A stretch of 64,000 nt of DNA, from positions 26,220-90,219 of the forward strand of contig CAZNOG010000009.1 of assembly GCA_964574635.1 (NCBI GenBank). Reading direction: 5' to 3'. This DNA comes from an uncultured Cryomorphaceae bacterium (GTDB lineage Bacteria; Bacteroidota; Bacteroidia; Flavobacteriales_D; Cryomorphaceae). Below are positions 1 to 63,121 of the stretch, piece by piece (within the stretch, counting starts at the first letter, position 1; every line of letters begins with the position of its first letter). Position numbers and translations under genes: made by a program. The notes below the pieces were generated by a model. That model saw only the letters and a program-made list of their open reading frames with translations. It did not search any database and was not told the origin of the DNA.

Positions 1-532
1 GCATGGTGGTCCAAGGCAGGCCGATGTTGTCGGGCAGTTCGCGGATCAGGGTAAAAGGGCTGTTGCCGATTTTGTAGTCGAACACATAGATGCCGATGAC
101 CATGGTGCCGATGAGCGCCTGTGCGATGGCCACGACGAACATGGTGAGGTTTTCCCACTTCCGGGCGGTAAACACCAGTATATTTCCGAGAACCGCGTAC
201 CAGAACCCCCAGAGCAGGAAGCTCCCCTCCTGCCCTTCCCAGAAAGCGGAGAAGACGTAGCGTGTCGGCATGCTCAGGTTGGCGTGTTTCCAGACGTAAT
301 CGTACTCGAAATACTTGTTGAAAAGCATGACGAACAAGACCACCACGGCACCGATCAGCGCCGCGGAATGGACGCGAAACGCCGTCCGCCCCACCTTCGT
401 GTAGAGAGGTTCGGAATGCCTGTGCGCCAGAAAGTACGCCAGAGCCGAAACCAAAACCGAAGCCAACGACACCGCCAAAAGGGCATCGCCGAGCGCGCCT
501 ATAAACGCGTGCTCACCCACATATTCTATCAT
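1..532 (-). CDS. ccmF: cytochrome c-type biogenesis protein CcmF, N-terminal part (leaves window at left edge)
   Basis: Hand translation of the minus strand from the ATG at 530-532 gives MIEYVGEHAFIGALGDALLAVSLASVL...FSAFWEGQEGSFLLWGFWYAVLG, which is multi-TM and W-rich like CcmF. The start overlaps the ccmE stop (ATGA). It is absent from the ORF track because it is open-ended. Confidence 0.8.
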   Translation of the reverse strand, partial: MIEYVGEHAFIGALGDALLAVSLASVLVSALAYFLAHRHSEPLYTKVGRTAFRVHSAALIGAVVVLFVMLFNKYFEYDYVWKHANLSMPTRYVFSAFWEGQEGSFLLWGFWYAVLGNILVFTARKWENLTMFVVAIAQALIGTMVIGIYVFDYKIGNSPFTLIRELPDNIGLPWTTM

Positions 533-945
533 CAATAATATTCTTTGTACTCCTCGTCATGAGGAATGAATTCACCGTCGGCATTGTACTTCGACGGGCA
601 TTTCATGAGCATTTCCGAGGCGTGGAATTCATCGCCTTGGGCTTTACCGATCAACACGACGCTTTCCGATCTCTCGAAGTCTTGGGGTTTGCTCTTGTTG
701 AGGATGACCCTTCGGACTTCTCCCGCTTCGTCGATCATGGTAAATTCGGTGATGTTGGGATTGACTTCCGGGTTGTACACGATGTCGGCGCTGCGATCGA
801 GCTCACCCACCACGTGGTATTCCCGTCCCGGGTTGTTGAAAGCTTCGTGAAAGTCGGCGTATGAACTCGATTCACTCACCGACCCGATCATAAATGCCGC
901 GGCCACGGCGATGATCAATATGGCCACGATGTGTGTCTTTTTCAT
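532..945 (-). CDS. ccmE: cytochrome c maturation heme chaperone CcmE (Cys-type CxxxY variant)
   Basis: 137-aa ORF with an N-terminal membrane anchor and an OB-fold-like body. The C-terminal ...EMLMKCPSKYNADGEF sits where canonical CcmE has HDENY. It lies between ccmD-like and ccmF. Confidence 0.9.
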   Translation of the reverse strand: MKKTHIVAILIIAVAAAFMIGSVSESSSYADFHEAFNNPGREYHVVGELDRSADIVYNPEVNPNITEFTMIDEAGEVRRVILNKSKPQDFERSESVVLIGKAQGDEFHASEMLMKCPSKYNADGEFIPHDEEYKEYY

Positions 946-1169
946 CTCGATTCTTTTTTCTCTCGTTGTTCCAGTTTCTTCACTTTTCGATCAAGATAGA
1001 CCAAGTACGCCACGATCAGTATGAAAGCCGCCGCAACCACGGCCGCCACCACTTTGTATTTTCCCGATTCGAACATGGTGTTGTTGAGCCAGTTCGCCTG
1101 ATTTTGGGCGGCGGCCACCGTCGAAACGGCCAAGGTCGAAAGCAATATGGTCAGGGATTTAATCGTCAT
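942..1169 (-). CDS. CcmD-like small membrane protein
   Basis: 75-aa ORF with a single TM (VVAAVVAAAFILIVAYLVYL) followed by DRKVKKLEQREKK. It occupies the ccmD position between ccmC and ccmE and overlaps both neighbours. Confidence 0.6.
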   Translation of the reverse strand: MTIKSLTILLSTLAVSTVAAAQNQANWLNNTMFESGKYKVVAAVVAAAFILIVAYLVYLDRKVKKLEQREKKESR

Positions 1170-2202
1170 TCCACATGATTTGAGCGTACTTCAATCGGTG
1201 CAGGCGGTACTTCAGTTGGAATATCCAGATGGACAGGCCTATCCACCCCAAGACCGCCGGATAAAACACCATGCGCAGATTGTCGTCCAGATCGTATTGG
1301 CTGAAGGCGGGGTTGCCGCCCACGCCCGGATGCAGTGAAGCCGTCATCCGGGGCAAGACCATGACGAAAAGGATCATCATTGCGTATGCAAAGATATTAT
1401 ACACCGCGCCAAGTCTGGCTGATTTTTCACGATCATTCACAGAAGATTTCAAAACGAAATAGGCCAAGTACACCAACACCCCCAATGCCGCGCCATTCAA
1501 GCGGGGATCGCTCACCCACCACGCGCCCCACGTGAAGCGCGCCCACACGCTCCCGGTGGCCAATCCTATGAAGGCGAACAGCAACCCCGCGTGAGCGGCG
1601 TCGCCGGCCATAAGGTCGTATTTCATGTTTCCGCTGTTCAAGTGCATAATGCTGAACACCAAAGACAGCGTCATGATGAAGAGCATGGCGAACCACGCCG
1701 GCACGTGAAAAAGGATGTTGCGGATGGTTTCGTTGAGAATGGGTTGGTTGGGAAAATGATAGTGGGCGGCTTCCTGCACGGCGATGGGCTGCAGGCAGTT
1801 TTCCTTCGAAGGCGGATTTTCGACCACTTCGAGGCCGTCTTGGATAAACGCGTTGGGGAGGCGCATGGTGCCGTCGAGGTCGTTGTTGACGTAGAGGTCA
1901 AAAAATCCCCGGCCCACCGGCTGCGCGACGCTGAAGGTCACGCGGAATTCCGTTTCGGAAACGATGGCCATTTCCGTGGGGCAAAAAATGGTCGAGCCGT
2001 TCGTGAGCCACGCTTGGAGTGAAGATTCGGCGGTCTTGAAGTTGGTGTTGTACCCGGAAACGGTCACGGAGGTCACTCCGTATTGGATGCGCTCGGGTGA
2101 AACGCGCGGAATTCCGGGGGCCAAGGGAGTGGTCAATCCCACGATCAATGTCACCAAAACGATTAGCGCCGAAAGCCACTTCCACCACGAGATAGACCCC
2201 AT
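1159..2202 (-). CDS. ccmC: heme exporter/heme-handling protein CcmC with N-terminal extension
   Basis: Internal ATG (MGSISWW...) of the 573-aa ORF; the upstream part of that ORF overlaps ccmB in another frame. Carries the W-rich motif WARFTWGAWWVSDPRLNG. It is 347 aa, versus about 250 aa for a typical CcmC. Confidence 0.85.
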   Translation of the reverse strand: MGSISWWKWLSALIVLVTLIVGLTTPLAPGIPRVSPERIQYGVTSVTVSGYNTNFKTAESSLQAWLTNGSTIFCPTEMAIVSETEFRVTFSVAQPVGRGFFDLYVNNDLDGTMRLPNAFIQDGLEVVENPPSKENCLQPIAVQEAAHYHFPNQPILNETIRNILFHVPAWFAMLFIMTLSLVFSIMHLNSGNMKYDLMAGDAAHAGLLFAFIGLATGSVWARFTWGAWWVSDPRLNGAALGVLVYLAYFVLKSSVNDREKSARLGAVYNIFAYAMMILFVMVLPRMTASLHPGVGGNPAFSQYDLDDNLRMVFYPAVLGWIGLSIWIFQLKYRLHRLKYAQIMWNDD

Positions 2203-2216
2203 CCGGTTTCCCTTGA

Positions 2217-2885
2217 TTATTCCCGCCAAAGGTAAGGAAATAATACATAGGACAAGCCCAGGGCGAGCAGCGGAACGGCCCCCAACTGCAAGGCGTAAAC
2301 GCCGTTTTCGGACCACGCGATCCCGTCGAGGGAATTCTTGGAAAACCGCATGAGAATAAGCAGCAATGGGAGGATGACCGGCAGACCCAAAATGGCCATG
2401 AGGCCCAAATTGTTCTCCGCTTGGGACGAAATGGCGGATATCAGCGTCAGCACAAACGCCAAACCGACGGCGCCCAGGAAAAGGGCCAGCATCAGCGCTC
2501 CGGCATGGACTTGTTGCAGGGGATCCGTGCCGAGCATCAACGCGTACATGCCGAACCCTACGAAAACCATGACCACCAGAAGGAAGGCGTTGTATATCAT
2601 CTTGCCGATGATCACCGATTCGGGCGAAGCCAACGTATAGAGATACAGTCTGCGGCCGGCGTTCTCGGAGGCGAAACTCCGTGCGGAGGCATTGAAGGCG
2701 GCAAACAAAACGATGATCCAAAACAGGGCGTTCCACGTCGGAACGTCGACGATGCGCCGGAACGCCAAGTACGACACGAAAACCGAAGCGGCGATGTACA
2801 GAAAGACGCTGCCCAACGCGTGCGGACGACGCCACTCCATGCGCAAATCTTTTCCCACCACGGCTCTGACCTCCCTCCAATCCAT
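2217..2885 (-). CDS. ccmB: heme exporter membrane protein CcmB
   Basis: 222-aa polytopic membrane ORF directly upstream of ccmC, with CcmB-like length and hydrophobic pattern. Confidence 0.8.
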   Translation of the reverse strand: MDWREVRAVVGKDLRMEWRRPHALGSVFLYIAASVFVSYLAFRRIVDVPTWNALFWIIVLFAAFNASARSFASENAGRRLYLYTLASPESVIIGKMIYNAFLLVVMVFVGFGMYALMLGTDPLQQVHAGALMLALFLGAVGLAFVLTLISAISSQAENNLGLMAILGLPVILPLLLILMRFSKNSLDGIAWSENGVYALQLGAVPLLALGLSYVLFPYLWRE

Positions 2886-2887
2886 AT

Positions 2888-4285
2888 TCAGGACTTTATT
2901 TCAACGACTTCACCCTCTTCGGGCAAATGGATGTGGTGAAAGCCTCCCGCTTCGAGATGATCCCGGTACGCTTCCCTCACTTCCGGTCGGCCGTGTACCA
3001 AAAACAGGTGGGTGATGAGATGGGGTTCCTGACAACTCAAGTACTCCATCATCTCCGAATAATCCCCGTGCGCCGAGTACGAATCCAAGACTTCCACGCG
3101 CGCCTTTACGCTGTACTCACGGCCGTGGATCCTCACGCTTTCGGCGCCTTCCCTCAACTGCCCACCCAAAGTGGAAGGTTCGCAGTACCCCACGATCAAC
3201 ACCGTGTTTCGAGAGTCTTCCAAATTGTTCTTGAGATGGTGCACGATGCGGCCGGCCTCGGCCATACCCGAAGCCGAAATGATGATGGCCGGCTCGCGGA
3301 GAGAGTTGATCAACTTGGAATACTTCGCCTCGCGGATGTAGTGGAGATTCGAAAATCCGAAGGGCTCTTTGTCGCGCTCCATGTACTTCAACATGCGCTC
3401 GTTGTAATGGTCGGGGAAGGAACGCACGATCTCCGTGGCATTGGTGCTCAACGGACTGTCGACAAACACTTTGATGGGCGGAAGCTCTCCTTCCGATTCC
3501 AAGCGGTCCAGTGCGTAGACGATCTCCTGCGTACGCCCCAAACTGAAGGACGGAATGATCAATTTTCCCTTGTTGTCCACGCACGTTTCCTGCACGATTC
3601 GGCCCAAGGTGTGCCGGTCGTGGTCTACGGATGCGTGCAAGCGGTCGCCGTACGTGCTTTCGGTGATGATGACGTCGGCACGGGGAAAGGGCTCCGGGCC
3701 CCGAATGATTTTCTGGTCCCGTCTTCCTATGTCTCCCGTGTAGGCCACTCGGTGGGTTTTCCTCCCTTCGCGGATGCGGAGGTTCACGCAGGCACTGCCC
3801 AAAATGTGGCCGACGTATGTGAACATCGCCGTGAGGTTCTCGCCCAGGTCATGCCACTCGTCGTAGGTCAAAGGCCGAAACAAATCCATGGCTTTCCTCA
3901 CGTCGTCGACGTCGTACAGGGGTTCCGCGAGTTCGCCGTGCACGTGCTTTGATTCGTATTTGAAATCCGACATTTGAATATGGGCCGAATCGGCGAGCAT
4001 GATCTCGCAGAGCGCCATCGTCGGTTCGGTGCAGTAGATGGGGCCTGAAAAACCCCGTTTGACCAAAAGCGGCAACAAACCCGAATGATCGATGTGGGCG
4101 TGCGACAAAATAACCACGTCGACCGATGCGGGGTCGAAGCCCAAGTCGCGGTTCCTCCTCCCGGCGTCGGCTTCACGCCCTTGGTACATGCCGCAATCCA
4201 ATAGGATGCGCAACCCCTCTTCGGTTTCGATGAGATGTTTGGAGCCCGTCACGGTGCCCGCTGCGCCTTTGAATGCTATTTTCAC
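2888..4285 (-). CDS. MBL-fold beta-CASP hydrolase (RNA-metabolising metallo-beta-lactamase family)
   Basis: 465 aa with the HxHxDH motif (SHAHIDHSG) and downstream beta-CASP-like motifs. Its stop lies 2 nt before the ccmB start. Confidence 0.85.
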   Translation of the reverse strand: MKIAFKGAAGTVTGSKHLIETEEGLRILLDCGMYQGREADAGRRNRDLGFDPASVDVVILSHAHIDHSGLLPLLVKRGFSGPIYCTEPTMALCEIMLADSAHIQMSDFKYESKHVHGELAEPLYDVDDVRKAMDLFRPLTYDEWHDLGENLTAMFTYVGHILGSACVNLRIREGRKTHRVAYTGDIGRRDQKIIRGPEPFPRADVIITESTYGDRLHASVDHDRHTLGRIVQETCVDNKGKLIIPSFSLGRTQEIVYALDRLESEGELPPIKVFVDSPLSTNATEIVRSFPDHYNERMLKYMERDKEPFGFSNLHYIREAKYSKLINSLREPAIIISASGMAEAGRIVHHLKNNLEDSRNTVLIVGYCEPSTLGGQLREGAESVRIHGREYSVKARVEVLDSYSAHGDYSEMMEYLSCQEPHLITHLFLVHGRPEVREAYRDHLEAGGFHHIHLPEEGEVVEIKS

Positions 4286-60528: not shown

Positions 60529-61994
60529 TCGCCGAGAACCCGGAAATCATCGCTAAATACCAAGTGGTCATCGGCTTGGAAGTGCACGCACAGATGTCGA
60601 CGCTGAGCAAGGCCTATTCCGGCGACCGAAACGCCTACGCGGGCAGCCCGAATTCCTACACCTCGCCCCTCACCTTGGGCCATCCCGGAACGCTTCCGCG
60701 CTTCAATGAGCGCACCTTGGAATACGCAATCAAAATGGGTCTGGCCACGGGAAGCACCATTTCACGGGCCATGCACTTCGCGCGGAAAAATTATTTCTAC
60801 GCCGACCTGCCCAAAGGCTACCAAATCACCCAAGACACCACGCCCATTTGCACGGGGGGATCGATCGAGATCAAAGACGCCGAAGGTCGGCCGAAACGCA
60901 TCGGCATCACGAGAATCCACATGGAAGAAGACGCGGGCAAAAGCATCCACGATCAAGACCCCGACAATACGCTCATCGACCTGAATCGCGCCGGCGTTCC
61001 CCTCATCGAGATCGTCAGCGAGCCGGACATGCGCTCGCCCGAGGAAGCTTACAACTACCTCGCTGAGGTGAGGCGGTTGGTAAGGCATTTGGAAATTTGC
61101 GACGGAAACATGGAAGAAGGCAGCCTCCGCTGCGACGCCAACGTCTCGGTGATGCTCAAAGGCTCGTCGACCTTCGGAAACCGCTGCGAAGTGAAGAACA
61201 TGAACTCGTTGCGCAACGTGCAGAGGGCCATCGAATACGAAATGAAGCGGCAGATCGCCCTCCTCGAATCGGGCGTCAAAGAGATCGATCAGGAAACGAG
61301 GAGCTTCGACGCCGTACGAGGCGTGACCTTTACGTTGAGGAGCAAAGAAGACGCCCACGATTACCGTTATTTTCCCGAGCCGGACCTCCCGCCCATCACC
61401 ATTACGGAGCCGCAAATCGAGGAAATTCGCCGGGCCATGCCTCCTCTGCCGTCGGAACTCCTCGCCAAATACCGCGGTGAACTCGGACTCTCGGAATACG
61501 ATTCCGACATTTTGGTCGAAGACAAAAACACCTCGCTGTATTACAACCAACTGATCGAGCACACCTCGAATTACAAGGCCGCGGCCAACTGGGTGATCGG
61601 CGACATCCGATCGCATTTGAACCAAACCGCGACCGACATCGCACGCTTTCCCGTGAAGCCGCGCAGCATCGCGCGCTTAATCGCCTTGATCGACGAGGGG
61701 AAGATCAGCAATTCCGTGGCTTCCCAATCTCTGTTCCCGAAATTGATCGAAGAGCCGAATGCGGATCCCGCCGAAATCGCGGAAAGGGAAAATCTCATTC
61801 AAAGCAGCGACGACGACTGGCTGATCGGACTCGCCGGAGAGGTCTTGGACATGTACCCCGACAAGGTACAAGCCTACAAACAGGGCAATAAAGGATTGCT
61901 GGGGCTGTTTATGGGAGAGGTGATGAAAAAATCCGAACGCAGGGCAAACCCCAAAAAGGCCAGTGAAATCATTAAAAAAATCCTGGAAGAATGA
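60525..61994 (+). CDS. gatB: Asp/Glu-tRNA amidotransferase subunit B
   Basis: Start at MIAENPEII (ATGA overlap with PNP). Contains VIGLEVHAQ, RKNYFYADLPKGYQITQ, HMEEDAGKS. Confidence 0.95.
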   Translation: MIAENPEIIAKYQVVIGLEVHAQMSTLSKAYSGDRNAYAGSPNSYTSPLTLGHPGTLPRFNERTLEYAIKMGLATGSTISRAMHFARKNYFYADLPKGYQITQDTTPICTGGSIEIKDAEGRPKRIGITRIHMEEDAGKSIHDQDPDNTLIDLNRAGVPLIEIVSEPDMRSPEEAYNYLAEVRRLVRHLEICDGNMEEGSLRCDANVSVMLKGSSTFGNRCEVKNMNSLRNVQRAIEYEMKRQIALLESGVKEIDQETRSFDAVRGVTFTLRSKEDAHDYRYFPEPDLPPITITEPQIEEIRRAMPPLPSELLAKYRGELGLSEYDSDILVEDKNTSLYYNQLIEHTSNYKAAANWVIGDIRSHLNQTATDIARFPVKPRSIARLIALIDEGKISNSVASQSLFPKLIEEPNADPAEIAERENLIQSSDDDWLIGLAGEVLDMYPDKVQAYKQGNKGLLGLFMGEVMKKSERRANPKKASEIIKKILEE

Positions 61995-63121
61995 AGACTT
62001 TGAAATGGCTACCGATCACCCTCTTGGCGTTGGCTGTCGGCTGCACGAACGCGCAGGAGGAAAACACCGTATCGGGCACGATCGACAACGCGGAGGGAAG
62101 TGAACTCCACCTCATCGGATACAAAATGGGCACCCCGGACACTTTGGGCACCACCACATTGGACGCCGAGGGAAATTTCTCTTTCACCGTGCCGCCGGCG
62201 CGACCCAACTTCTACGTATTGTCTTTCGACAACTCCCAAAGCATCACGCTTTACCTCGACAGCACCGAAACGGACGTCGAGGTGTTCGCCGACCTCAACA
62301 CCTTGAATCGGACGTATCAAGTGGAGGGGTCTGTGGAAAGCGAAGACCTGCGAAACCTATTCGTGACGGAAACCAAGTACCGCACGGAACTCGATTCGCT
62401 GATGAAAGCCATGCAGCAAGCCGCCACATCGGGCGACAACGAATCGCGGGTGCAACTCAGCGAGAGGTACAATCTCCTCGGCCGGGAATACAAGGAATAT
62501 CTGCTGCGATTCATCGACGAGGACTCCACGCGAATCGCCAACTACAATACTTTGCAGCGCTTGGACCCGAACAACGAATTCGAGTACATTCAGCGCGTGC
62601 GCAACGGCTTGGGGGTATCGATGAAAGGAAATTACTTCTACGACCGCTTGGCGGAGGAAGTGGCGCGATTCGAAGAGAGAAAGCGGGCCGAACAAGGCTT
62701 TGCCCCCGGTGCGGTGGCACCGGATATCGTGCTGCCCGACCCCGAGGGAAACCTCGTGAAGCTTTCGGACTACCGCGGCAACTACGTCCTGATCGACTTT
62801 TGGGCGTCGTGGTGCAAGCCTTGCCGCGTCGAAAACCCCAACGTGGTGGCCATGTACAACAGGTTCGCTTCGGAAAATTTCGAGATATTCGGCGTGTCCC
62901 TCGACCGCAGTCGAGAGAATTGGCTGCAAGCCATTCAGGACGACGGCCTCACCTGGCCCCAAGTCAGCGACTTGAAATTCTGGAACAGCGCCGCGGCCCG
63001 TCTGTACAACGTGAACGCGATTCCTCATACGGTGTTGATCGATCCGGAAGGCAAGATCATCGCGTCCAAGTTGCGGGGACAAGCTTTGGAAAGAAAACTC
63101 GAGGAAATTTTCGGCGCCTGA
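61991..63121 (+). CDS. TlpA family thiol:disulfide oxidoreductase with N-terminal DUF4369-like domain
   Basis: Lipoprotein-like signal (LALAVGCTN) and LIDFWASWCKPCRVENP. Confidence 0.88.
   Translation: MKTLKWLPITLLALAVGCTNAQEENTVSGTIDNAEGSELHLIGYKMGTPDTLGTTTLDAEGNFSFTVPPARPNFYVLSFDNSQSITLYLDSTETDVEVFADLNTLNRTYQVEGSVESEDLRNLFVTETKYRTELDSLMKAMQQAATSGDNESRVQLSERYNLLGREYKEYLLRFIDEDSTRIANYNTLQRLDPNNEFEYIQRVRNGLGVSMKGNYFYDRLAEEVARFEERKRAEQGFAPGAVAPDIVLPDPEGNLVKLSDYRGNYVLIDFWASWCKPCRVENPNVVAMYNRFASENFEIFGVSLDRSRENWLQAIQDDGLTWPQVSDLKFWNSAAARLYNVNAIPHTVLIDPEGKIIASKLRGQALERKLEEIFGA

What the first reader, a model, noticed from the sequence alone, without database searches (positions are those of the whole stretch)
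532..945. CcmE carries Cys (CPSKY) instead of the canonical heme-binding His (HDENY): a variant System I in a Bacteroidota genome
At the position of the covalent heme-binding His of canonical CcmE (HxxxY), this protein reads ...EMLMK-C116-PSK-Y120 (codons at 598-600 and 586-588).

CxxxY-type CcmE is the hallmark of the described variant System I, known from archaea and Desulfovibrio-type bacteria and reported to lack CcmH. Here the cluster is ccmB-ccmC-ccmD-like-ccmE-ccmF.

No ccmA precedes ccmB. Instead a beta-CASP MBL hydrolase ends 2 nt before the ccmB start. Whether ccmH or ccmG follow ccmF cannot be seen because of the window edge.
Basis: partly seen in the sequence, partly recalled or inferred. 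Interest (0 to 1): 0.6.

Follow-up and report, generated by a model that had tools for sequence, protein, structure and literature searches.

The report
Cysteine-type CcmE haem chaperone gene

Summary
ORF 532-945 (-) encodes a 137-aa CcmE whose only cysteine, C116, lies in K-C116-PSK-Y120.

Pfam coordinates, a profile alignment to E. coli CcmE, the match to Desulfovibrio vulgaris CcmE (2KCT) and an AlphaFold/Foldseek comparison all place C116 at the site of the haem-binding His130. The tail His (PHDEEY) is not conserved.

The gene sits in a translationally coupled ccmB-ccmC-ccmD(alt)-ccmE-ccmF operon. Nothing ccm-related follows ccmF. The 99%-complete genome has no CcmH, CcmI, ResB or CcsA and no CcmG above cut-off, yet it encodes at least eight c-type cytochromes.

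ccmA is not missing. Its orthologue lies unlinked on another contig, supported by reciprocal best hits to cluster-linked ccmA genes and by a matching phylogenetic profile.

This is the published "System I*" with its exact CPSKY motif. In 401 sampled genomes of the phylum:
- 271 have CcmE.
- 5 have CcmH.
- 118 have ResB, and only 9 have both CcmE and ResB.
- All 70 CcmE loci inspected read KCPSKY.

So this is a normal member of a known kind. The only mildly new point is that Bacteroidota, not named in the reviews I could read, are a very large reservoir of CcmH-less System I*.

The parts
532..945 (-). ccmE, 137 aa: N-terminal membrane anchor, OB-fold barrel and C-terminal tail. Cys-type haem chaperone.
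   Evidence: Pfam PF03100 at 37.4 bits. AF2 model core pLDDT is about 90. Best Foldseek PDB hits are CcmE structures 1LM0/1J6Q (TM 0.68), 8CE8_E, 1SR3 and 2KCT.
586..600 (-). Codons for C116-P-S-K-Y120, the CxxxY haem-binding motif (Cys codon 598-600, Tyr codon 586-588).
   Evidence: hhalign pairs EMLMKCPSKYNA with E. coli EVLAKHDENYTP, so C116=H130 and Y120=Y134. Pfam model coordinates agree. The profile aligns KCP to KCP of D. vulgaris CcmE 2KCT. The motif is invariant in alignment A1.
942..1169 (-). ccmD-like gene (CcmD_alt family), 75 aa. It overlaps the ccmE start by 4 nt and the ccmC end by 11 nt.
   Evidence: Pfam PF20077 CcmD_alt at 41 bits; NCBIfam TIGR04391 at 29.8 bits, above its cut-off of 24.
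1159..2202 (-). ccmC, 347 aa: CcmC core with a WWD-type motif (WGAWWVSDPRLNG) and flanking His (FHVPAW, SLHPG), preceded by a ~150-aa extra N-terminal TM helix plus soluble segment.
   Evidence: Pfam Cytochrom_C_asm at 54 bits; NCBIfam ccmC TIGR01191 at 73 bits, below its cut-off. Motifs were read from the sequence. The N-terminal part has no Pfam hit.
2217..2885 (-). ccmB, 222 aa: the ABC permease subunit of the haem-chaperone release complex.
   Evidence: Pfam CcmB PF03379 at 31.1 bits, cut-off 24.9. The position is conserved as ccmB-C-D-E-F in most of 80 related loci.
2..535 (-). 5' part of ccmF. The full gene is C9:23944-26754, 936 aa, and runs off the window. The start (TTG 535 or ATG 532) overlaps the ccmE stop.
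   Evidence: NCBIfam NrfE/CcmF hits. Full-length Pfam Cytochrom_C_asm at 84.6 bits plus CcmF_C. Aligns to T. thermophilus CcmF 6ZMQ at E 6.6e-27.

Best explanation
ORF 532-945 (-) is a functional CcmE haem chaperone of the cysteine type (CPSKY). It belongs to a CcmH-less "System I*" cytochrome c maturation pathway that is the only such pathway in this Cryomorphaceae-like Bacteroidota genome.

Inferred mechanism, by analogy with studied systems: CcmC presents haem through its WWD domain and two His ligands to membrane-anchored CcmE. The thiol of C116 adds to a haem vinyl group to give a covalent holo-CcmE, with Y120 as iron ligand. CcmA (encoded elsewhere, at C12:78567-79214), together with CcmB and the CcmD-like protein, releases holo-CcmE. 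CcmF, acting without CcmH or CcmI, then transfers the haem to CXXCH motifs of exported apocytochromes (ACIII, cbb3 oxidase, NirK-cyt c, peroxidase and others).

Shown here: family membership, site equivalence of C116 and His130, operon structure, absence of CcmH/CcmI/System II, presence of a ccmA orthologue and of substrates, and phylum-wide conservation. Inferred: the covalent Cys-haem bond and the order of steps.
For: Family and fold:
- Pfam CcmE is above cut-off.
- The AF2 model gives an OB fold whose best PDB matches are CcmE structures.

Site equivalence:
- hhalign pairs C116 with H130 and Y120 with Y134.
- Pfam coordinates agree: residue 122 maps to model position 98, and E. coli residue 137 maps to 99.
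- The profile aligns KCP with KCP of D. vulgaris CcmE 2KCT.
- C116 is the sole Cys and is invariant.

Operon:
- ccmB-C-D-E-F has overlapping or 2-nt junctions.
- The same order occurs in most of 80 related loci.

No alternative maturation system in a 99.3%-complete genome:
- Cytochrom_C_asm matches only CcmC and CcmF.
- There is no ResB, CcmH or CcmI.

Substrates: eight c-type cytochromes were confirmed by Pfam.

ccmA:
- The best NCBIfam family of the C12 ATPase is ccmA.
- Its homologues occur in 188 of 401 phylum genomes. By my reading of the tables, 186 of these are CcmE-positive and none is a ResB-only genome.
- In other classes the homologue sits in the ccmA slot of ccmA-B-C-(D)-E-F clusters.
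- Those linked ccmA genes hit the C12 gene as reciprocal best hit.

Literature:
- CPSKY is the majority motif of System I* (PMC3601427).
- The D. desulfuricans Cys-CcmE binds haem covalently (PMC3601427), and Cys120 of M. acetivorans CcmE is required for haem attachment (PMC9084895).
Against: - No biochemical data exist for any Bacteroidota CcmE in the literature I could search.
- Single-sequence and profile searches against PDB sequences are weak: 2KCT scores E 0.71 and hhalign probability is 15.8%. Site equivalence therefore rests on several concordant but individually modest alignments plus the fold.
- The ccmA, ccmC and ccmE scores are below the NCBIfam equivalog/subfamily cut-offs, which shows these proteins are divergent from the proteobacterial models.
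- No CcmG orthologue is above cut-off, so the route that keeps apocytochrome thiols reduced is not identified. There are only five TlpA-like thioredoxins and one DsbD_TM protein.
Confidence: 0.9

Rival explanations
1. The real haem-binding residue is His129 in the C-terminal tail (P-H129-DEE-Y133, an HxxxY that resembles canonical HDENY). C116 would then be incidental.
For: The tail of this protein literally contains an HxxxY motif, HDEEY.
Against: - HDEEY or HDEAY occurs in only 2 of 120 close homologues.
- Relatives at 90% identity read PHEAAS or PHETAA, and relatives at 80% identity have no His there.
- The region has pLDDT below 50 and lies beyond the end of the Pfam CcmE model.
- All alignments put C116 at the His130 site.
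Confidence: 0.02
2. The protein is a CcmE-fold protein that binds haem only non-covalently through Cys/Tyr ligation, or has another role. In that case the pathway would not pass through a covalent Cys-haem intermediate.
For: Sequence alone cannot show a covalent bond. A thioether to CcmE would be chemically hard to break, as noted in PMC3601427.
Against: The D. desulfuricans Cys-CcmE binds haem covalently (PMC3601427), and in M. acetivorans the haem-stained CcmE band is lost in the C120A mutant (PMC9084895). The motif is identical here and conserved phylum-wide. The operon context is that of the chaperone.
Confidence: 0.05
3. The ccm cluster is incomplete (no linked ccmA, no ccmH or ccmG) and non-functional, and the organism's cytochromes c are matured by an unrecognised system.
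For: No ABC ATPase reaches the ccmA cut-off. No CcmH, CcmI or CcmG is above cut-off.
Against: - All five ORFs are intact and translationally coupled.
- The same CcmH-less layout is conserved in hundreds of species.
- A ccmA orthologue exists.
- CcmE and ResB are almost mutually exclusive across the phylum: 262 genomes have CcmE only, 109 have ResB only and 9 have both. This is the pattern expected if each is the working system.
- A System I* operon lacking CcmH and CcmG works in E. coli (PMC3601427).
Confidence: 0.03

Closest known systems
System I* (variant Ccm) CcmE of Desulfovibrio desulfuricans / D. vulgaris (Allen et al. 2006; Goddard et al. 2010; NMR structure PDB 2KCT; reviewed in PMC3601427)
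   Same: Cys replaces the haem-binding His. The CPSKY motif is identical. The fold is an OB barrel with a membrane anchor. A ccmD-type gene is present. No CcmH, and no CcmG above cut-off, is needed or encoded.
   Different: - It occurs in a different phylum and in an aerobic or microaerobic respiratory setting (ACIII, cbb3, NirK).
- ccmA is unlinked from the operon.
- CcmD is of the CcmD_alt family.
- CcmF is about 280-290 aa longer than the 647-660-aa CcmF of E. coli and T. thermophilus, with a large Cys-free all-beta periplasmic module.
- CcmC here carries an N-terminal extension.
- No TPR CcmI was detected.
Archaeal streamlined Ccm machinery (CcmABCEF) of Methanosarcina acetivorans (PMC9084895)
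   Same: A CxxxY CcmE whose Cys is required. There is no CcmH or CcmI. CcmF acts alone as the synthetase.
   Different: The archaeal system lacks CcmD and has a split CcmF. Here a CcmD-like gene is present and CcmF is a single, enlarged protein.
Canonical System I CcmE of Escherichia coli (His130-x3-Tyr134; PDB 1SR3, 8CE8 chain E)
   Same: Same Pfam family, same fold, same position of the reactive residue at the end of the last barrel strand, same conserved Tyr four residues on, and same neighbours ccmC/ccmD upstream and ccmF downstream.
   Different: The residue is Cys instead of His, and the two are not interchangeable in the systems tested (PMC3601427, PMC9084895). There are no CcmH or CcmG partners. 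Sequence identity is low, 31% over 62 aligned columns.

Membership tests
CcmE (Pfam PF03100) | Sequence match to the family model above the curated cut-off | tested here: met
   37.4 bits against a cut-off of 24.6, covering residues 56-122 and model positions 34-98 of 99. The NCBIfam equivalog NF009727 gives only 25 bits against 126, so this is a divergent member.
CcmE (Pfam PF03100) | N-terminal membrane anchor followed by an OB-fold beta-barrel | tested here: met
   The AF2 model has a helix at 4-20 and a barrel at 28-117 with pLDDT about 90. Top Foldseek PDB hits are CcmE 1LM0/1J6Q (TM 0.68, rmsd 2.9 A), 8CE8_E, 1SR3 and 2KCT.
CcmE (Pfam PF03100) | Reactive residue plus Tyr in a [H/C]xxxY motif directly after the barrel | tested here: met
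   C116...Y120 aligns to H130...Y134 of E. coli CcmE and to the Cys of 2KCT.
CcmE (Pfam PF03100) | Covalent haem binding and transfer to apocytochrome c | not testable with these tools
   This needs haem staining or mass spectrometry of the protein and mutants.
System I* (Cys-CcmE variant Ccm system) | Cys in place of the haem-binding His of CcmE (typically CPSKY) | tested here: met
   CPSKY at 116-120. This is the same motif as the majority of System I* genomes in PMC3601427.
System I* (Cys-CcmE variant Ccm system) | Core CcmA, B, C, (D), E and F present | tested here: met
   B, C, D-like, E and F are in one operon. A is unlinked at C12:78567-79214, identified by its best NCBIfam family, its phylogenetic profile, synteny in other classes and reciprocal best hits.
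System I* (Cys-CcmE variant Ccm system) | CcmH absent (frequent in this system but not obligatory) | tested here: met
   There is no PF03918 match in the own genome, best E 0.15. Only 5 of 401 phylum genomes have one. There is no CcmI.
System I* (Cys-CcmE variant Ccm system) | CcmG absent or not detectable | tested here: inconclusive
   No hit reaches the TIGR00385 cut-off (best 58 bits against 123). Five TlpA/ResA-like thioredoxins and one DsbD_TM protein exist and could serve this role.
Canonical System I (HxxxY CcmE with CcmH) | His at the haem-binding position and a CcmH partner | tested here: not met
   Cys occupies the site. No CcmH is present.
System II (CcsBA / ResBC) | ResB/CcsB and CcsA present | tested here: not met
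   No ResB is above cut-off, best E 0.2. The only Cytochrom_C_asm proteins are CcmC and CcmF.

The most novel reading that the evidence does not exclude
Bacteroidota may be the largest bacterial reservoir of CcmH- and CcmI-less System I*, and their version may have its own compensating parts. The candidates are a conserved Cys-free all-beta periplasmic module of about 300 aa in CcmF with no structural match in the PDB, the CcmD_alt subunit, and (in this lineage) an extra periplasmic domain on CcmC. Together these could take over the apocytochrome-handling role of CcmH/CcmI. If so, this would be an undescribed architectural variant of the cytochrome c synthetase, not just another System I* operon.
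Probability: 0.15. Interest if true: 0.45.

Novelty: new member of a known kind. Interest (0 to 1): 0.2.

Why it matters
For this gene, little: it is a correctly recognisable CcmE of a type described in 2006-2011, and public annotation already names its homologues CcmE.

The broader tally is of some use. Papers still describe Cys-CcmE as a feature of archaea and "a few bacteria". Here, about two thirds of a 401-genome sample of Bacteroidota use it, essentially always without CcmH, and almost mutually exclusively with System II.

That points to aerobic, cultivable Bacteroidota as possible experimental models for two open questions about System I*. One is how a Cys-haem thioether on CcmE is formed and broken. 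The other is how CcmF works without CcmH.

Tried and rejected
- **Single-sequence phmmer of CcmE against PDB.** It found no CcmE. The A1 profile found 2KCT only weakly, at E 0.71. I therefore relied on hhalign, Pfam coordinates and the fold search.
- **Tail His as binding site.** Rejected, because it is not conserved.
- **ccmA by NCBIfam cut-off.** No ATPase passes. The highest TIGR01189 scorers are other transporters, for example GldA at C7:57326-58228. The true candidate ranked only 11th by that score and was recognised because ccmA is its best family.
- **ccmA next to ccmB in 80 related loci.** Essentially never present, in 1-2 loci only. The beta-CASP MBL gene upstream of ccmB is found in only 4 of these loci, so its 2-nt junction with ccmB is a lineage-specific accident, not part of the system.
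- **Fold of the enlarged CcmF periplasmic module.** The model is confident (pLDDT 91) but there is no meaningful PDB match: best TM 0.16, to CcsBA. Nothing is learned about function. It has no Cys, so it cannot be a CcmH-like thiol oxidoreductase.
- **Literature searches for CcmE together with Bacteroidetes/Bacteroidota.** They returned only metagenomic surveys. Goddard 2010 (PMC2906280) and a second id that I guessed for the Kranz 2009 review are not held. Allen 2006 could not be read, so I cannot say whether its tables list a Bacteroidetes genome.
- **Phylogeny of Cys- against His-type CcmE.** Not attempted, because no labelled His-type set beyond E. coli and Shewanella was to hand.

Full report
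**Observation**

The minus-strand ORF at 532-945 encodes a 137-aa protein ending ...EFHASEMLMK-C116-PSK-Y120-NADGEFIPHDEEYKEYY. C116 is the only cysteine in the protein. Pfam recognises a CcmE domain (37.4 bits, cut-off 24.6, residues 56-122 on model positions 34-98 of 99). The NCBIfam CcmE equivalog matches only weakly, so the protein is a divergent family member.

**Is C116 at the haem-binding site?**

Four lines of evidence agree.
- The E. coli CcmE sequence, checked as identical to PDB 8CE8 chain E, matches the same Pfam model over residues 35-137 and positions 2-99. Assuming no gaps at the model's C-terminal end, Y134 and our Y120 then both fall on position 96, and H130 and our C116 on position 92.
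- A profile of 15 homologues (A1) aligned by hhalign to E. coli CcmE pairs EMLMKCPSKYNA with EVLAKHDENYTP. The statistics are modest (E 0.0016, probability 16%).
- The same profile aligns ...ILMKCP with ...LMTKCP of Desulfovibrio vulgaris CcmE, PDB 2KCT, the structurally characterised Cys-type protein.
- An AlphaFold2 model has a core pLDDT of about 90, an anchor helix at 4-20, a beta-barrel at 28-117, and C116 at the end of the last strand. Its best PDB matches are CcmE structures: 1LM0/1J6Q (TM 0.68, rmsd 2.9 A), 8CE8_E, 1SR3 and 2KCT.

This fails. The tail does read HxxxY, but HDEEY or HDEAY occurs in only 2 of 120 close homologues. Relatives at 90% identity read PHEAAS or PHETAA, and those at 80% identity have no His. 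The segment is also disordered in the model.

**Genomic context**

The window is C9:26220-90219 of a 3.08-Mb, 99.3%-complete assembly.

The genes are tightly coupled on the minus strand:
- ccmB at 2217-2885
- ccmC at 1159-2202
- a CcmD_alt-family gene at 942-1169
- ccmE at 532-945
- ccmF from 535 or 532 onward

Adjacent genes overlap by 1-11 nt, except for a 14-nt gap between ccmB and ccmC. ccmF continues beyond the window edge to C9:23944 and encodes 936 aa.

Judged from the ORF translations alone (not scanned against any family library), the genes after ccmF look like unrelated housekeeping genes: a Rossmann-type protein, a KdsC-like phosphatase, a UbiA-type prenyltransferase, Maf and a deacetylase. 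No ccmH or ccmG follows.

The upstream beta-CASP MBL gene really does end 2 nt before ccmB. That neighbour is present in only 4 of 80 related loci, whereas ccmB-C-D-E-F is the dominant order. The junction is therefore incidental.

**Rest of the genome**
- Cytochrom_C_asm (PF01578) matches only CcmC and CcmF, so there is no CcsA.
- ResB, CcmH and CcmI are absent.
- No thioredoxin reaches the CcmG cut-off. Five TlpA/ResA-like thioredoxins exist, one of them in the window at 61991-63121, along with one DsbD_TM protein.
- The organism needs haem attachment. Pfam confirms an ActA-like multihaem protein with six CXXCH motifs, an ActE-like monohaem cytochrome, a FixO/FixP-type cbb3 subunit fusion, a NirK-cytochrome c fusion, a di-haem peroxidase and others.

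The ccm operon is thus the only recognisable maturation system.

**ccmA**

No ABC ATPase passes the ccmA cut-off. One 215-aa ATPase at C12:78567-79214 has ccmA as its best NCBIfam family and matches almost nothing else strongly.
- Homologues at E <= 1e-24 occur in 188 of 401 sampled phylum genomes. By my reading of the tables, 186 of these are CcmE-positive and none belongs to the ResB-only families.
- In at least 27 genomes of other classes, the homologue lies about 2 kb upstream of ccmE on the same strand. Four such loci, when fetched, read ccmA-ccmB-ccmC-(ccmD)-ccmE-ccmF.
- Their ccmA products hit the C12 gene as best match in this genome.
- In genomes of the same class the gene is unlinked, as it is here.

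So ccmA is not missing. It sits behind an lpxA-like gene on another contig (the lpxA-like label is read from the ORF alone).

**How common is this?**
- The search for homologous proteins returned 4370 relatives. The 120 best are Cryomorphaceae- or Flavobacteriales-type proteins already named CcmE by NCBI or JGI, and 118 carry CPSKY.
- A profile search of 1.84 billion cluster representatives found 1021 clusters. Of the best 150, 128 carry CPSKY; I take the other 22 to be fragments, most of them being short, but did not check them row by row.
The 80 best are almost all labelled as Bacteroidota (one row carries a gammaproteobacterial species label): Flavobacteriales, Cryomorphaceae, Salibacteraceae, Crocinitomicaceae, Chitinophagaceae, Saprospiraceae and Sphingobacteriaceae.

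In an evenly drawn sample of 401 high-quality genomes of the phylum:
- CcmE is present in 271, covering 151 of 180 genera.
- CcmH is present in 5.
- ResB is present in 118.
- By my cross-tabulation, 262 have CcmE only, 109 have ResB only, 9 have both and 21 have neither.

I inspected 70 of the 271 CcmE loci, spanning at least 35 of the tool's family codes. All 70 read KCPSKY. The inspected loci lean towards the better-scoring matches, so "universal" is a strong inference and not a census.

**Comparison with what is known**

The Cys-for-His CcmE was described from genomes in 2006 (Allen et al.) and named System I*. The Desulfovibrio operon, which lacks CcmH and CcmG, makes holocytochrome c in E. 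coli, and its CcmE binds haem covalently. A 2011 review reports CPSKY in 25 of 36 such bacterial genomes and names delta-proteobacteria, Chloroflexi and Firmicutes (PMC3601427). In Methanosarcina acetivorans the equivalent Cys120 is required for haem attachment and CcmABCEF suffices (PMC9084895).

This gene meets every sequence-level criterion of that system. None of the papers I could search names Bacteroidetes or Bacteroidota as carriers. I could not read Allen 2006 or Goddard 2010. Earlier notes of this scan report the same motif in at least 18 genomes; the follow-up reports shown cover six lineages and treat the Cys-type motif itself as the already described form. These are unchecked AI notes and I use them only as context.

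**Mechanism**

Shown:
- membership in the CcmE family, and the fold
- equivalence of C116 to His130
- the conserved Tyr
- the conserved His and WWD motifs in CcmC (FHVPAW, WGAWWVSDPRL, SLHPG) and in CcmF (IHPPTLFLGY, FWAWDPVENASL, SVHSF, VAHVGFG), read from the sequences
- a complete CcmABCDEF set
- absence of alternatives

Inferred from the studied systems: covalent thioether formation at C116, ATP-dependent release by CcmAB(D), and CcmH-independent transfer by CcmF.

**Side leads**

CcmF is long (936 aa here, median 854 aa in 66 relatives, against 660 aa in Thermus). The extra length is mainly a periplasmic all-beta module. That module is predicted with pLDDT 91 but has no meaningful PDB match, and CcmF contains no Cys. 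CcmC in this lineage has an extra N-terminal TM helix plus a soluble segment with no Pfam match. Whether either feature compensates for the missing CcmH/CcmI is open.

**Verdict**

Interest is low. The residual value is the phylum-wide tally and the location of the unlinked ccmA.

Noticed in passing
G000:C12:78567-79214 (+), outside the window: The ccmA orthologue is unlinked from the ccm operon. Its start overlaps the end of an lpxA-like gene (77792-78574), and an efp-like gene follows. The same unlinked state is seen in same-class genomes, whereas other classes of the phylum keep ccmA-B-C-(D)-E-F together.
   Followed up: yes
G000:C9:23944-26754 (-); window 2-535 holds the 5' end: CcmF is 936 aa (median 854 aa in 66 relatives, against 660 aa for T. 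thermophilus 6ZMQ). Most of the excess is a periplasmic all-beta module (residues ~590-905), predicted at pLDDT 91. It has no meaningful PDB fold match and contains no cysteine.
   Followed up: partly
window 1159-2202 (-): CcmC carries a ~150-aa N-terminal extension: one TM helix plus a soluble, beta-rich segment with two Cys and no Pfam hit. Median CcmC length in 69 related loci is 237 aa, so the extension is lineage-specific.
   Followed up: partly
window 547-561 (-), CcmE residues 129-133: The disordered tail reads H-D-E-E-Y, mimicking the canonical HDENY haem-binding motif. It is confined to relatives at least 93% identical and is most likely coincidence.
   Followed up: yes
window 2888-4285 (-): A beta-CASP MBL ribonuclease-like gene scores 376 bits against an NCBIfam model named type VII CRISPR Cas14 and 286 bits against aCPSF1, both far below cut-off. 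It ends 2 nt before ccmB. This adjacency occurs in only 4 of 80 related loci.
   Followed up: partly
window 61991-63121 (+): A lipoprotein-type TlpA-like thioredoxin (WCKPC active site) with a long N-terminal domain. It is one of five TlpA/ResA-like thioredoxins in the genome that could keep apocytochrome thiols reduced in place of CcmG.
   Followed up: no
L166 (G240:C1:64000-74000), another genome of the phylum: This is one of the few genomes with two CcmE genes. The extra copy (QAKCPSKY) has the highest Pfam CcmE score in the sample and sits about 2 kb upstream of the only strong CcmH match in the phylum sample. That suggests a second, possibly acquired, Cys-type ccm cluster that does include CcmH.
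   Followed up: no
G000:C10:8221-9753 (+) and C18:40184-41209 (+): Two fusion proteins among the haem-attachment substrates: a copper nitrite reductase-like protein with a C-terminal cytochrome c domain, and a FixO-type cbb3 subunit fused to a cytochrome c domain.
   Followed up: no
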